Source of the DNA: Carcharhinus longimanus
Taxonomy: Eukaryota
Direction: 5' to 3'
Assembly: GCA_030264375.1 (NCBI GenBank)
Contig: JASCQW010000154.1
Coordinates: 16,674,218 to 16,738,217, forward strand
Length of the DNA stretch: 64,000 bases
Under the pieces are notes generated by a model. The model was given only the letters and a program-made list of their open reading frames with translations, was not told the DNA's origin and made no database searches. Below are positions 30,468-62,756 of this stretch, piece after piece. Position 1 is the stretch's first letter; each line of letters starts with the position of its first letter. A program made the translations under genes and the position numbers.

Positions 30468-30580
30468 TCAATGTGGATGGCAGACCAGATAAGGTTGCAG
30501 ATGATGGTTCTGATAGCAAGCAACGCTGTCCAAAATCCATTCTCTGGTAACTACAATGGTGTTGTATTGTCTCTGGATTG
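30468..30580 (-). CDS. BRCA1: BRCA1 terminal coding exon 24 equivalent, to the TGA stop
   Basis: Acceptor ttgcag. AIQRQYNTIVVTREWILDSVACYQNHHLQPYLVCHPH* versus human [41 protein letters not shown]. Confidence 0.97.
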
Positions 30581-30982
30581 CTGCAACAACATTACGACAT
30601 TGTATATTTTCATTATTCATTTTATAATAGGTTTTCATATAAAGCGTCAACCATTTAAAAAGAATCCCTGTGAACATTAATTATCCCTCTCAGTTGCAGC
30701 ACAGTAAACATTATCAATCTTTACTTGACCTGAAACACACAAATGGAAACGAACCCATATCGTGAAACCAACCTCTAAGAAATTCTGGATGCAAATACTT
30801 GTATAAACTAATTGAACTCAATCTGTTGGAGTCCATTGCTCCACCACAGTCTTCCCAAACTTTTCCAGTCGCAGAATCCTTCTGCGCTCCCCAAGAATAC
30901 TGAATAAATCCGAGAACCTTATTACAAACTAAAGAATTAAACCACAAAAAATGACTATTATTGTGCAATTGGTACAGATTTC

Positions 30983-32041: not shown

Positions 32042-32102
32042 CTTCATAGTCAGTATTTGCTGAATTAGCATCAGGCTGTACAACAACCACTGCAGTACGA
32101 TC
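32042..32102 (-). CDS. BRCA1: BRCA1 exon 23 equivalent (BRCT2)
   Basis: 61 nt as in human. DRTAVVVVQPDANSANTDYE versus human [20 protein letters not shown]. Donor gtgagt. Confidence 0.97.
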
Positions 32103-33843: not shown

Positions 33844-33917
33844 AGGACTATAGGTGAATAAATAAGGTTCCTTAATTATGGAAGCACCGCAGAGTTCTAC
33901 CAGCCACTCCAGTTGAT
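33844..33917 (-). CDS. BRCA1: BRCA1 exon 22 equivalent (BRCT2)
   Basis: 74 nt as in human. DQLEWLVELCGASIIKEPYLFTYSP versus human [25 protein letters not shown]. Confidence 0.97.
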
Positions 33918-46895: not shown

Positions 46896-46953
46896 CTCTA
46901 CTCATTCCTGTAAAAGAACCAAAGCAGCAAATCTCATATTGGCTTAAGAGCAG
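46896..46953 (-). CDS. BRCA1: BRCA1 exon 21 equivalent (BRCT2)
   Basis: 58 nt (human 55). LLLSQYEICCFGSFTGMSR versus human IFRGLEICCYGPFTNMPT. Acceptor tttcag, donor gtaaga. Confidence 0.95.
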
Positions 46954-47768: not shown

Positions 47769-47852
47769 TTTTCCATCCGTTGTTTTTCTTGCTTTTCTTG
47801 GGCCATNNNNNNNNNNNNCATTGATTACATCACCCCTCACCTCAAACATGTC
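47769..47852 (-). CDS. BRCA1: BRCA1 exon 20 equivalent (BRCT linker; contains a 12-N gap)
   Basis: 84 nt including the Ns, as in human. DMFEVRGDVING...GPRKARKTTDGK versus human [28 protein letters not shown]. Donor gtaaga. Confidence 0.96.
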
Positions 47853-48614
47853 CTGAAATATTTCAGAACAAAAATACATTATTGTAATAGCTTATAAAAA
47901 AAGCAGATATTTGACAATACCAAAATGTCTCAAGATATACAATGCCACACAATGTTTTGAAAGGTCTTACATGTTGTAATTCGCAGAATGTACAAGAGTA
48001 ACAAAAATATTAAATTCTAAAATTAATTTCTCAGGTTGCTTAGTAGATTAGAAAACCACCTTCCCTACTCTGGAGCTTGGATTAAGATATTACTTTTCTT
48101 TCTCCTTGGTAAGGAGCTCATGTGAAAGACAGTTCAGAAATATAGAACAGAATTGTAGAGGGAGCTAATCTAGTCTACAGGTACAAAGTTTGAGATACTT
48201 TTTTTATTTCATATTAATGGGGCGTAAGATCTACCCATCCAATCCAAATAGCGTTCTTAAGTCTTCTGAAGCAGACAGAGCCTGATACAACCTTTACCTC
48301 TGTTAACTATAATAATTTTAAATCAATTGGACCACTGAACTGATTACGTGCAAGAGTAGAATTTAATGCAGGCAACAGGGATCACCCTGCTGGCTGGAGA
48401 GCCAATGAGAGCCACATGTCGCTTTGTTTTGATCGTCCCTTTAAGGGCAACACAGCAGAGCAAGGGTCACTAGGCCTCAGTGACCTATCTGGATTCAAGA
48501 GTGGAGAATCATCCCAGGGGTAGGAACTCTTCTTGGGCACAGGGACTTTAAAATTAGCTGCAAACATGCTGTTCTTAAAGACAACTGTAAATAAATCCCT
48601 TTTTGTTCACTCAT

Positions 48615-48722
48615 GGGGCGGAATTTTCTCATCCCGCCTGCTATGGGAATCACAGCGGGCAGGACACAGACCATGCAACGGTCCGTTGACCTTGGGGCAA
48701 GCACAGCTGGAAAATCCCACCC
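48615..48722. mobile_element. Short MITE-like element
   Basis: ggggcggaattttc...gaaaatcccaccc; homologous to 7245-7360. Confidence 0.55.
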
Positions 48723-50047
48723 ACAAATTCTCAGAAAGTGCACCATTACATACTTTCACCCAGGAAGGCCTGTCACTCTGAATGAAAATAGGGCCTTTAA
48801 TTTGGCAGCAGCATTTCTTTCCCAGGATTCAGGGCTTGCCCGCCAAGAGCTGCTGGCCAAAGGCTGGAGCCCTTCATTGCTTGGCAGTGCTACGAGGGGA
48901 GCAGTGGCTTTTGCCAGTAATACATCCATTTGAGCTTCCTCTCAATAAGTGCCCCCCGCCAAACTCACCAAGGAAGAGGATATAAACCTGTACCCACAGT
49001 TATTTTTATTGGTGATGGGAGAAGAATTAAGTATGAATCCACTTCAGTTTTCTTTTCCTCCTAATACAAGCATTTTGCAACATGGATATTTTGTACCCTC
49101 AATTTGGATAAAACACTTGATTAATAAATAAAATGAATAAACGAGCACTTTATGATTATCAAACTCTATATGAATTTGGGTCAATACATGGGCAATTCAT
49201 CCAAACTCATCTATAAACTGTGTATTAGTTGCTTGGAATCAGAAGGGGCTGTGGCACAATAATGTTGTTAGGTATCAACATCGCACTGTCAATGATATCC
49301 CACTGCACATGATTCAGCTGGTGCAATGCAGATGTCATTGCAGCCAGTAGGTCTGGGATGTTAAAAGATAGCACTTAAAATCGATGACAAGACAATGCAG
49401 GGGCCAATATTCTTTATTTTATGAAGTGTAACGTTAAAGCTTTACTGAGTACAATTTTCAGATACGCAAATCAAATTGAACTATTTGTAATCCAAATATA
49501 ATTGGACTATCAAAACACAGACTTGACAGAACTGCAAAGTCGGTGGCATATTTGGACTTCTATATCTCAAACCAATAACTTTAAAATTGGTTATACATGT
49601 AATCTTCAAAAACAAGTTACGCTATGTCCATGTTGCACTGTACAAAGCTCATGGTAACACAAATAAAAGTGACAAGGTGGGCAGAGTTACACAGCTATAG
49701 TTTGTTACAGGGGCATGATGTGAAACCAATCCAATGTTATTAAAAACACAAGTGGCTAAAAGCATTAAATAAAACTGAGCCCTCAAAATACATTTAGGTC
49801 AAAGTTCTGAATTTAGTTAAGAAAATAAATAGCCAAGGGTCAAAATTAATATTCATATCAGGGAGTTAGGAAAGGTTTAATGTAATGCATCAGGGATGAC
49901 ACAAGGCAGAAGACAGCAATGTCATCTATCTCAGCAACAATGGAGAGGTTTTAGTGCACTAATTTCTGCATGACTAAAACCATAAAATACTATTCATGTC
50001 AAAATGAAAACCAATGTTCTCTGTAGAGAAAAAAAAAGTAACCTTAA

Positions 50048-50088
50048 CTCATCAATTACTATGCATTTTCTAAAACACTCGACAATCC
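50048..50088 (-). CDS. BRCA1: BRCA1 exon 19 equivalent (donor reads TT instead of GT)
   Basis: Acceptor ttttcag, 41 nt as in human. WIVECFRKCIVIDE versus human WVTQSIKERKMLNE. The phase 1 to 0 junction is required by the neighbouring exons, but the following bases are TTAAGG. Confidence 0.9.
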
Positions 50089-50224
50089 CTGAAAATAAAT
50101 CACTGCAGTCATTTCGCAAGCACAATACAATCTTAAAGGTTTTGGCTATATTAAGTACTTAATGATACTAGTTTTCAATCCAAAAGGCAATCATTGTTTT
50201 ACACTGCTGGATCTCTAGGTGTTA

Positions 50225-50680
50225 GCTTTTGTTCAGCGGTAGAAATGTCACTGATTCAGAATGTCACAGCTTCATGCTCCACTTCAGAGTTGAGCCAATA
50301 ACCTAAGCTGACCCTCTAACACAGTACTGAAGGAATGCTGCACTATCACAGGGGCAGCCTTTCAGATAAGGTGTTAAAGTGAGGCCTTATGCACCTTCTC
50401 AGGTCAACATAAAAGATTCCATGGCACAATTTGAAGAGCACGAGCGTTCTCCAAGTGCACTGGCCAATAATCCATCCGTCAACTAACATCGACAGAAACA
50501 GGTTAGCTGTTCATTTGTCTCATTGTTGTTTCCAGGACTCTGCTGTGCAAGCTGGCAACCACTTTTGCCTATATTACAAAAATGACGACTCCTCCAAAGT
50601 ACTCAGCTAGTGAAATGAAGCACTCTGGGTCATGCTGCTGATGTGTGGGTGCTATGTAAAAATATGCAAGTTCTTTCTCT
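50225..50680 (+). mobile_element. Deu-domain SINE (SacSINE1/AmnSINE1-like), near full length
   Basis: cagtactgaaggaatgctgcact...tttcagataaggtgttaaa...aaaagattccatggcacaatttgaagagca...gctatgtaaaaatatgcaagttctttc. Confidence 0.78.
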
Positions 50681-50769
50681 TTCACGTGCACTTCAGTTTA
50701 GGAATTTTTTGATTCTCTAATTAATCAACAATCACCAGTTTCTTATCAATTTTAGGCAGACACAAATAG

Positions 50770-51030
50770 TTTTAAAGTTACTTTTTATTAGTGCCACAAG
50801 TAGGCTTACATTAACAATGCAATTAAGTTACTGTGAAAATCCCCCAGAGTCACAGGTTTACAGCATGAAAACAGGCCCTTTGGCTCAACTTGTCCATGCC
50901 ACCCCTTTTTTAACCACTAAGCTAGTCCCAATTGCCCACGTTTGGTCCATATCCCTCTATATCCATCTTACCCATTTAACTGTCTAAAAGCTTTTTAATA
51001 GTCACCACACTCTGGCGTCTGTTCGGGCAG
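50770..51030 (-). mobile_element. HE1 B-tail fragment interrupted by a CR1 3' end (50848-50997)
   Basis: ...gtgaaaatcccc | CR1 tail | gtcaccacactctggcgtctgttcggg; lies ~50 bp from the exon 18 donor. Confidence 0.8.
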
Positions 51031-51041
51031 CTATTACATTA

Positions 51042-51188
<147 letters not shown>

Positions 51189-51584
51189 TTAACATACCAG
51201 GTTGGCTTTGGCAATGATTTTTATTAAAGCATTTTTCCAAGACATACATAGCTGGATCACTGATTTCCCTTATCTACTATATCAATCTTCATCAGTAAGC
51301 TCACAAGTTGCACTATGCTTGAATTCTGAGAGATACCTTGTATTTTCATTTAAAAAACTAATCATGTTCAAATGGCACAACAGCACCATCTCATATTAAT
51401 AATTCACAACATGTCAAGCTAAGTTGTTTTTTAATCCCATGTCAAATAAGCGGTTTGTTTTTTTTACTGGGATCAGAGATGAATGGCAACCAAGCAAATA
51501 TTAGACATTCAATTTTAGTACAATTGTAACCAAAATAGTGAGAAATTTGAGGCAAGCATTTTAATACATCAACAGGATGCCTAG

Positions 51585-52402: not shown

Positions 52403-52490
52403 CTGTTTTCATGATGACATGCGTTGTACTGGGTGAAAAATTACTGAGGAACGCGGCTCCTGTTTTTCTTGCAAATGTTTCAACCAGCAA
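52403..52490 (-). CDS. BRCA1: BRCA1 exon 17 equivalent (BRCT1)
   Basis: 88 nt as in human, AG/GT bounded. LLVETFARKTGAAFLSNFSPSTTHVIMKT versus human [29 protein letters not shown]. Confidence 0.97.
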
Positions 52491-57860: not shown

Positions 57861-58207
57861 AATTTCGTTTTTGTTCAATCCTGAAGCTACAAAGGACATT
57901 TTTCTTTTAATGGTCACAACCGTGCTCTTGCTGGCATTCGCACTTTTGTTAAAAACAGGAGATGAAGTTCGTGAAGATTTGCTATGCTTGAAGCTTTTGG
58001 ACATTGCCCTTCTGTCATGTTGGGGTTTCTCATGCTGGGGAGGTGACATACTCTCGTCGTCAGCAACATCTTCTGTAGGCTGGCATCTTATCATAGACAA
58101 AACAGAAGGGCTACTTGCTGATGCCAAAACACAGTCTCCCTTTCCTGCACTCTCTAATTTGTTTGTCAACGTAACGTCTTTCAGCAGTTCCTCACCATCA
58201 TGATTTC
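57861..58207 (-). CDS. BRCA1: BRCA1 exon equivalent to human exon 16 (linker plus start of BRCT1)
   Basis: Acceptor ttcaag, donor gtaagt, 347 nt, phase 1 to 0. Ends KRKMSFVASGLNKNEI, matching human KRMSMVVSGLTPEEF. Confidence 0.95.
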
Positions 58208-60486: not shown

Positions 60487-60662
60487 CTTCACTATCTGAG
60501 TTTGTGTGTTTCTTTATCTCCTCTTTCTCTTGTGCGGCATTTGGCGAGTCAGTAATTTCTCCCTGAGAGCCTGCTTTGGATTGGAATTGGTGTGGCGAGT
60601 CATCCACTGCTTGAAGCCTCTCTGGTTTTTGTCTAATTTCCAAATCCGTACCAGATATTGGG
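60487..60662 (-). CDS. BRCA1: BRCA1 exon equivalent to human exon 15
   Basis: Polypyrimidine tract plus gacag acceptor, donor gtattt, 176 nt, phase 2 to 1. Reads PISGTDLEIRQKPERLQAVDDSPHQFQSKAGSQGEITDSPNAAQEKEEIKKHTNSDSE, in frame with both neighbours. Confidence 0.82.
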
Positions 60663-62290: not shown

Positions 62291-62608
62291 AACTTAAGGC
62301 TTGTCAGTGGTTTACTGTGATCCAAGTATCTTCTCTGAAACCAAACTAAATTCAGTAATGGTTACTCTTCAGGCAATTTTTTTAAAAACAAGATAATACA
62401 CAAATTGTTTACAGAAGTATTGACGATGGCTACAGAAATAATTGTTCATTGACCTCTGTAATAGTTTGGGGAGCCCAGTTTAAGGGAAGGAAACATGGAG
62501 AACAGGATAAGGCATTTTCATCTCACACTAAACATGTTCAACACCTACGTGCTGTTTCTTTAGTCAATAAATATATGCAAATTTAAACAAGTCCTGGTAG
62601 AACCTTAC

Positions 62609-62756
62609 CATTCAGTCTCCTCTTTGTCCTCATGTGCAAAGACTACACTTGTATTTAGCAGTGGCTGAGGTCTTACAGCTTCAGTTGCTGGAAGAAATTG
62701 TGATTTTGATCTGCTTTGCAAATTTTCAGGAAGCCCCAGGTGAAATTCAGCAGTAA
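62609..62756 (-). CDS. BRCA1: BRCA1 exon equivalent to human legacy exon 14 (SQ-cluster region); gene continues beyond the window
   Basis: Acceptor ttgacag, donor gtaagg, 148 nt, phase 1 to 2 as in human exon 14. Reads TAEFHLGLPENLQSRSKSQFLPATEAVRPQPLLNTSVVFAHEDKEETE and splices in frame to the next exon. Sequence similarity is low, so the call rests on phase and position. Confidence 0.8.

What the first reader, a model, noticed from the sequence alone, without database searches (positions are those of the whole stretch)
50035..50090. Non-canonical TT splice donor in an essential BRCA1 BRCT exon
Seen: the 41-nt exon ends GAT GAG|TTAAGGTTAC, with T at +1 (50047) where human has GT. The nearby GT options, GA|GTTAAG (40 nt) and AAG|GTTACT (46 nt), both frameshift against the only nearby acceptor (47852), and skipping also frameshifts. 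All other exons are intact. Possibilities: an assembly error (substitution or a dropped G here or at the next acceptor), a real loss-of-function allele in this animal, or a true TT-AG intron. Known: a mutant TT donor can be used in human FANCC, and GTTAAG donors can be read by shifted U1 pairing. An error is the most parsimonious explanation.
Basis: partly seen in the sequence, partly recalled or inferred. Interest (0 to 1): 0.7.

Follow-up and report, generated by a model that had tools for sequence, protein, structure and literature searches.

The report
Shark BRCA1 splice-donor G>T variant
This shark's only BRCA1 gene has T instead of the normally invariant G at the start of one intron, a change also present in sequencing data of the same species but absent from three relatives, so it is likely a real, recent, mostly damaging mutation like those of human breast-cancer families rather than a typing error or an old splicing oddity.

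Summary
Observation confirmed: the 41-nt BRCT exon (50088-50048, minus strand) of the single-copy BRCA1 ends GAG|TTAAGG; 19 of the other 20 donors are GT (1 in an N gap), 21 of 21 acceptors AG, and a TT splice gives an intact 1947-aa frame. Three of three relatives' DNA runs read G at 50047 with no indel, and a relative's spliced contig uses exactly these exon ends: it is a single +1G>T substitution, not a dropped G and not a conserved TT-AG intron. Zygosity and splicing were not measurable (no raw reads, no RNA run of this species). Most likely a recent, leaky loss-of-function allele, probably heterozygous; it sits at the position of human c.5193+1. Open, more exciting reading (about 0.25): a homozygous or fixed, working TT donor.

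The parts
50047..50047 (-). Intron +1 base: T where relatives have G (+1G>T); position equals human BRCA1 c.5193+1
   Evidence: T in window and in same-species contig X1; G in X3, X7, X15; human position from PMC6772163 and PMC3519833 passages
50048..50088 (-). 41-nt BRCT exon (legacy exon 19, MANE exon 18, coding exon 17 of 22)
   Evidence: spliced contig of organism B lies exactly on 50048-50088 with loose ends equal to the neighbouring exons
50040..50050 (-). Mutant donor GAG|TTAAGGTT; keeps 7 of 11 U1-matching positions; no second GT at +5/+6
   Evidence: U1 motif recalled; comparison with TT sites in PMC6280755 section 6
50047..50048 (-). GT newly created at -1/+1 by the substitution; use would delete 1 nt (stop after residue 1822)
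50058..50059 (-).
   Evidence: deleted E is invariant in 70 of 70 homologs
50041..50042 (-). Intronic GT at +6/+7 (46-nt exon), frameshift (stop after residue 1824)
50010..50011 (-).
   Evidence: score -7.4 on the gene's own donor matrix
50029..50037 (-). T9 run at +11..+19 of the intron, a possible TIA1-type enhancer of a weak donor (inferred); present in relatives within one base
   Evidence: enhancer role of such tracts from PMC6280755 passages
47853..50047 (-). 2195-nt intron, TT...AG in this genome
47769..47852 (-). 84-nt next exon (legacy exon 20), canonical AG acceptor and GT donor
   Evidence: start confirmed by loose end of X6 contig
51080..51157 (-). 78-nt previous exon (legacy exon 18)
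   Evidence: end confirmed by loose end of X6 contig
52403..52490 (-). 88-nt exon (legacy exon 17)
57861..58207 (-). 347-nt exon (legacy exon 16)
60487..60662 (-). BRCA1 coding exon
62609..62756 (-). BRCA1 coding exon
46896..46953 (-). 58-nt exon (legacy exon 21)
33844..33917 (-). 74-nt exon (legacy exon 22)
32042..32102 (-). 61-nt exon (legacy exon 23)
30468..30580 (-). Last coding exon with stop codon

Best explanation
The T at 50047 is a +1G>T substitution in the donor of a BRCT exon of this shark's single BRCA1 gene, absent from three relatives, and it is likely a real, recent germline allele, likely carried on one chromosome only, that is predicted to act as a leaky loss-of-function allele. 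Mechanism (inferred): U1 can still pair with 7 of 11 positions, so the exon would be partly recognised, but cutting would split between the TT at +1 (correct mRNA), the GT that the change itself creates at -1 (1-nt deletion), exon skipping and nearby cryptic GTs. The -1, +5 and skipped forms stop 261-275 nt before the last junction (shown) and would be removed by nonsense-mediated decay or give a protein without a working BRCT pair (established knowledge). A normal second allele would keep the animal healthy. Shown: the substitution, its absence in relatives, its presence in a same-species contig, the intact rest of the gene. Inferred: zygosity, splicing outcome, effect.
For: Substitution, no indel: X3, X7, X15 all read C on + strand at 50047 (3 of 3 DNA runs laid). 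Real in DNA: X1 contig 49683-50811 has 0 other letters, 0 gaps. No compensating change: within +1..+8 the relatives differ from the window only at +1. No decay of the gene: 1947 aa open, 1 difference from P0001 in residues 1741-1828 and 2 in 1829-1957 (X positions excluded), so the change is young or the gene still under selection; one copy only. Human donor at the same junction: +2T>A and +2T>G gave only aberrant transcripts, mainly skipping (PMC12805630 passages); +2dupT, which makes a GTTAAG site, causes skipping (PMC12518100 abstract); +1G>A is likely pathogenic (PMC6772163 passage). TT sites without a second GT at +5/+6, like this one, spliced inaccurately at -1 and +1 (3 of 4) or switched to cryptic sites (1 of 4) in reporters (PMC6280755 section 6). 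At 14% or less of correct transcript BRCA1 behaves as loss of function (PMC12805630 passage). Brca1 loss is embryonic lethal in mice (PMC11789497 passages), which favours the heterozygous state.
Against: Zygosity is not shown: contigs drop one allele and no raw reads were offered. Two separate assemblies both carry T, and X1 has 0 differences from the window over 2,946 unique bases (records 1-5 and 8; repeat pieces 6 and 7 left out); for a heterozygous animal with independent allele picks that has probability 0.48, 0.23 or 0.03 at heterozygosity 0.05, 0.1 or 0.23%, which leans towards a homozygous stretch or a low-diversity species. If X1 is a second animal, the allele is shared and not rare. 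The flanks of this donor score 6.05 on a matrix from the gene's other 19 GT donors (leave-one-out range -1.5 to 6.3), a T9 run follows it, and the human ortholog tolerates +2T>C with 61% correct transcript: the site is a good candidate for real TT use. Zebrafish lives without BRCA1, so essentiality in sharks is assumed.
Confidence: 0.55

Rival explanations
1. The T is homozygous in this animal or fixed in the species, and the TT is used at +1 often enough (over about 20-30% of transcripts) to supply BRCA1: a young, working TT-AG intron in a tumour-suppressor gene.
For: Both assemblies read T and X1 shows no difference over 2,946 bases. At least ten other positions in this 3-kb stretch are specific to this lineage against X2/X3 and X7 (read from table 3), so lineage-specific changes are common here. 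7 of 11 U1 matches, as many as the natural ETV1 and the FANCC TT sites quoted in PMC6280755 (my count on the sites printed); strong flanks; T9 run. ETV1 has a constitutive TT-AG intron (PMC4176328 passage). 20-30% expression is thought enough for BRCA1 tumour suppression (PMC12805630 passage). Downstream BRCT exons show no decay.
Against: No compensating change next to the donor. Lacks the +5/+6 GT on which accurate TT splicing depended in reporters. Most human GT>TT changes disrupt splicing (PMC6280755 introduction). Constitutive TT donors are very rare.
Confidence: 0.27
2. The T is a sequencing or library artefact shared by the assembly and run X1 (same reads), and the animal has GT.
For: X1 may be the source sample and its word depth is only about 7; a T9 homopolymer lies 10 bases away; scans over many genomes collect rare errors.
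Against: A different assembler had to prefer T over G from the reads; contigs of three relatives read G in the same sequence context; no other difference between X1 and the window in 2,946 bases.
Confidence: 0.1
3. The allele is rescued by an in-frame cryptic GT donor (-12 nt or +36 nt) that gives a slightly shorter or longer but working BRCT domain, as in F7 IVS6+1G>T.
For: Both donors are in frame with acceptor 47852 and stop-free; the -12 site scores 1.69, inside the range of real donors of this gene; precedent in PMC3787739 (abstract).
Against: The segment from the BRCT1 tryptophan to the G-D motif is 19 residues long in 70 of 71 homologs where the motif was found (72 examined; the exception is a hypothetical bird gene model); -12 removes a glutamate that is invariant in 70 of 70 and a hydrophobic residue kept in 69 of 70; the +36 site scores -7.4.
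Confidence: 0.05
4. The change is somatic (a clone in the sampled tissue or a cultured cell line), not inherited.
For: Nothing in the data excludes it; only one run of this organism was listed.
Against: It must be in about half of the molecules or more to win in two assemblies.
Confidence: 0.03

Closest known systems
Human BRCA1 c.5193+1 and +2 donor variants (legacy exon 19, 41 nt): c.5193+1G>A, +2T>A/G/C, +2dupT, +1delG
   Same: Same gene, same exon length, same junction; skipping and a 1-nt shift are out of frame (PMC3519833 passages; PMC12805630 passages; PMC12518100 abstract; PMC6772163 passage).
   Different: Wild shark, G>T at +1 (no human RNA result for +1G>T was found); the shark site has G at +6 where human has T; zygosity and phenotype unknown.
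FANCC c.165+1G>T mutant TT donor (Hartmann 2010; seen only through PMC6280755, section 6 and reference list; the paper itself was not held)
   Same: +1G>T after an exonic G, pattern G|TTAAG, competition between +1 TT and -1 GT.
   Different: FANCC site has a second GT at +5/+6, on which accurate +1 use depended; the shark site has not.
Natural TT-AG introns of ETV1 and FBXO9 (PMC4176328 passages; PMC6280755 section 6)
   Same: AG|TTAAG core, U2-type acceptor.
   Different: Those are RNA-proven and have T at +6; the shark TT is not conserved in 3 of 3 relatives and is unproven in RNA.
F7 IVS6+1G>T with in-frame cryptic donor (PMC3787739, abstract)
   Same: +1G>T at a frameshifting exon with an exonic in-frame GT upstream.
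   Different: There the deletion left some activity; here it removes an invariant BRCT residue.

Membership tests
BRCA1 ortholog | N-terminal RING, large central exon, tandem C-terminal BRCT in one gene | tested here: met
   22 coding exons, 1773 of 1957 aligned columns identical to M. asterias BRCA1; PDB BRCT hits
BRCA1 ortholog | Single functional locus, not a decayed duplicate | tested here: met
   1 match in the genome by DNA and by protein; no stops; BRCT 98-99% identical to P0001
Natural (physiological) TT-AG U2-type intron | TT at +1/+2 in genomic DNA, not an assembly slip | tested here: met
   window and X1 contig agree; X1 may be the source animal
Natural (physiological) TT-AG U2-type intron | Spliced at the TT in RNA of this species | not testable with these tools
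   no RNA holder of organism A was listed; X6 is another organism
Natural (physiological) TT-AG U2-type intron | Conserved across related species | tested here: not met
   3 of 3 relatives have GT
Natural (physiological) TT-AG U2-type intron | Fixed or homozygous in the species | tested here: inconclusive
   only contigs, one run of this organism
Accurately spliced TT donor (FANCC/ETV1 type) | Second GT at +5/+6 with G|TTAAG core | tested here: not met
   site has G at +6
Loss-of-function donor +1 variant | Change of the invariant +1 G at a constitutive, out-of-frame exon | tested here: met
Loss-of-function donor +1 variant | Little or no correct transcript from the allele | not testable with these tools
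   needs RNA or a minigene
U12-type intron | RTATCCTT donor consensus (recalled) | tested here: not met
   donor reads TTAAGG, ancestral GTAAGG

The most novel reading that the evidence does not exclude
This shark species has fixed a TT donor in a constitutive BRCT exon of BRCA1 since it split from relatives that are about 99% identical, and splices it correctly enough to live, with help from strong flanks and the T-rich tract: a newborn TT-AG intron in a tumour suppressor, and a living test of how leaky the equivalent human c.5193+1G>T change can be.
Probability: 0.25. Interest if true: 0.72.

Novelty: new member of a known kind. Interest (0 to 1): 0.42.

Why it matters
If heterozygous and damaging, it is a wild-shark counterpart of a human breast-cancer splice variant at the very same junction, a concrete item of genetic load for a conservation genome and a warning that a reference assembly can display one animal's broken allele. 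If homozygous or fixed and spliced, it would be a recently born, working TT-AG intron in BRCA1 and would bear directly on how +1G>T variants are classed in clinics. Nothing on this site turned up in print in my searches (shark + BRCA1 + loss-of-function; TT-AG + vertebrate; shark + zebrafish + BRCA1; search listings only), which cover only the held open library.

Tried and rejected
Dropped G at donor or acceptor: rejected, relatives show a substitution and no indel at the donor, and the contigs of X2 and X3 over the acceptor have 0 gaps. Conserved TT-AG intron: rejected. Second BRCA1 copy or alternate haplotig: none found. Pseudogene decay: rejected. U12 intron: no consensus. The first lay did not list 50047 because its table was cut (81 rows hidden); X2's base at the site was therefore not read directly and X2 is not counted. 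No RNA holder of this organism was listed: no evidence either way. Search for transcript-derived BRCT fragments with an altered junction: 59 hits, only one cartilaginous-fish-like fragment, normal junction. Fold of a homologous BRCT pair: mean pLDDT 39, uninformative, not used. Saturation-editing scores for c.5193+1G>T and the FANCC paper could not be read (not held); their supplements may hold the human +1G>T result. The donor matrix is built from only 19 sites and is a rough guide; no MaxEntScan or HBond score was available. Earlier notes of this scan: 8 shown for this genome, none on this gene; 0 by words.

Full report
What is there. The window's minus strand holds the 3' part of a BRCA1 gene of a carcharhiniform shark; the nearest named protein is Mustelus asterias BRCA1 (P0001, 93% over one exon). 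With ten neighbouring genome stretches I built the whole gene: 22 coding exons, 1947 residues and no internal stop if the intron in question is cut at the TT, 1773 of 1957 aligned columns identical to P0001. Of 21 donors 19 are GT, one lies in an N gap and one is TT; 21 of 21 acceptors are AG. The TT follows the 41-nt exon 50088-50048: GAG|TTAAGGTT, T at 50047. The genome holds one copy. The BRCT part is 98-99% identical to P0001 on both sides of the site (1 difference in 88 and 2 in 129 residues, X positions excluded), so the gene shows no decay.

Is the T real? One search listed 21 public runs; only X1 carries this organism's label (97% of words held). Laid on 47820-51250, its contig 49683-50811 spans the site with 0 other letters and 0 gaps, at word depth 7.1, and its six non-repeat pieces (2,946 bases after overlaps; two SINE pieces left out) show no difference from the window. 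X1 may be the animal the assembly came from, so it is not an independent sample; but it is an independent assembly from reads, which makes a slip of the genome assembler unlikely. Contigs drop one allele at heterozygous sites, so zygosity cannot be read.

What do relatives have? In a narrow lay on 49960-50140, three of three DNA runs of other organisms (X3, X7, X15) read C on the plus strand at 50047, that is a canonical GAG|GTAAGG donor, with no insertion or deletion at the junction; within +1..+8 this is their only difference from the window. A 3,160-base contig of organism B lies exactly on 50048-50088 and its loose ends are the start of the next exon and the end of the previous one: a spliced transcript that confirms both exon ends in a relative. 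So the TT is a single +1G>T substitution on this organism's branch. It is not a dropped G and not an old TT-AG intron, and no compensating change has arisen beside it. X3 differs from the window at 18 of about 1,540 bases, so the change is younger than that split.

How it would splice (inferred). I enumerated all GT/GC donors within 200 bases and AG acceptors near 47852. The change itself creates a GT at -1/+1; use of it, of the GT at +6/+7, or skipping gives stops after residue 1822, 1824 or 1804, each 261-275 nt before the last junction, hence targets of nonsense-mediated decay by the usual 50-55-nt rule (established knowledge). The segment concerned is 19 residues long in 70 of 71 homologs in which the flanking motifs were found (72 examined), and the deleted glutamate is invariant in 70 of 70, so these are poor rescues. 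The TT site itself keeps 7 of 11 U1-matching positions, its flanks score near the top of this gene's donors (6.05; leave-one-out range -1.5 to 6.3 on 19 sites; a rough matrix) and a T9 run follows. In reporters, TT ranks second to GC among non-canonical donors and depends on enhancers; G|TTAAG sites without a second GT at +5/+6 were cut at both -1 and +1 (3 of 4) or abandoned for cryptic sites (1 of 4) (PMC6280755: abstract, passages and section 6). The shark site is of that kind. I therefore predict a mixture with a minority of correct mRNA: a leaky loss-of-function allele.

Comparison with what is known. The junction is human c.5193. In minigenes +2T>A and +2T>G gave only aberrant transcripts, +2T>C gave 61% correct transcript (PMC12805630 passages); +2dupT causes skipping (PMC12518100 abstract); +1delG shifts the cut by one base (PMC3519833 passages); +1G>A is likely pathogenic (PMC6772163 passage). 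I found no RNA result for human +1G>T (the saturation-editing paper was not held). About 20-30% expression is thought enough for tumour suppression and 14% or less is loss of function. ETV1 has a constitutive TT-AG intron (PMC4176328 passage). Brca1 loss kills mouse embryos, while a BRCT phospho-binding mutant gives sterile males and faster tumours (PMC11789497 passages); zebrafish has no BRCA1 (PMC6335974 passage). It works like FANCC c.165+1G>T or a human c.5193+1 variant; it fails the conservation test for a natural TT-AG intron, and the RNA test could not be run.

Weighing. For a heterozygous damaging allele (0.55): invariant base, no compensation, no +5/+6 GT, human precedents, likely importance of the gene. 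For homozygous or fixed and working (0.27): both assemblies chose T, and zero differences over 2,946 bases is expected with probability only 0.48, 0.23 or 0.03 in one animal at heterozygosity 0.05, 0.1 or 0.23% if allele picks are independent (the last figure is the X2-X3 difference of 7 listed places in about 3 kb, read); strong flanks and T tract. Shared artefact 0.10, cryptic in-frame rescue 0.05, somatic 0.03. These odds are judgement, not computation.

Verdict. Interest 0.42; 0.72 if it proves fixed and spliced. A read pile-up and one RT-PCR would settle it.

Noticed in passing
window 62601-62611 (minus strand, donor after exon 62756-62609): This donor, ATG|GTAAGGTT, has the same +1..+8 letters as the ancestral form of the mutated donor: an internal control for a minigene or RNA comparison.
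   Followed up: no
L004, donor after the fifth coding exon (region coordinate 92675): Weakest GT donor of the gene, only 4 of 11 U1 matches; the same exon has a second in-frame AG 9 nt upstream that would add three residues present in P0001.
   Followed up: partly
window 30581-30667 (minus strand): An upstream AG at 30667 is in frame and stop-free with the last coding exon and could add 29 residues if used; no evidence of use.
   Followed up: no
window 49258-49297: Contigs of X2 and X3 break here and X3 shows a back-joint with 8 extra letters, suggesting a small duplication in that relative's intron.
   Followed up: no
window 48395-48739 and 50695-51039: Two high-copy repeats in the introns flanking the exon (summed contig depth about 1e4 and 1e6 in the four DNA runs).
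   Followed up: no
P0015 (bird, hypothetical protein): The only homolog of 71 with a longer segment at this same exon junction (23 extra residues that look like read-through intron), probably a gene-model artefact or another broken donor at this junction.
   Followed up: no
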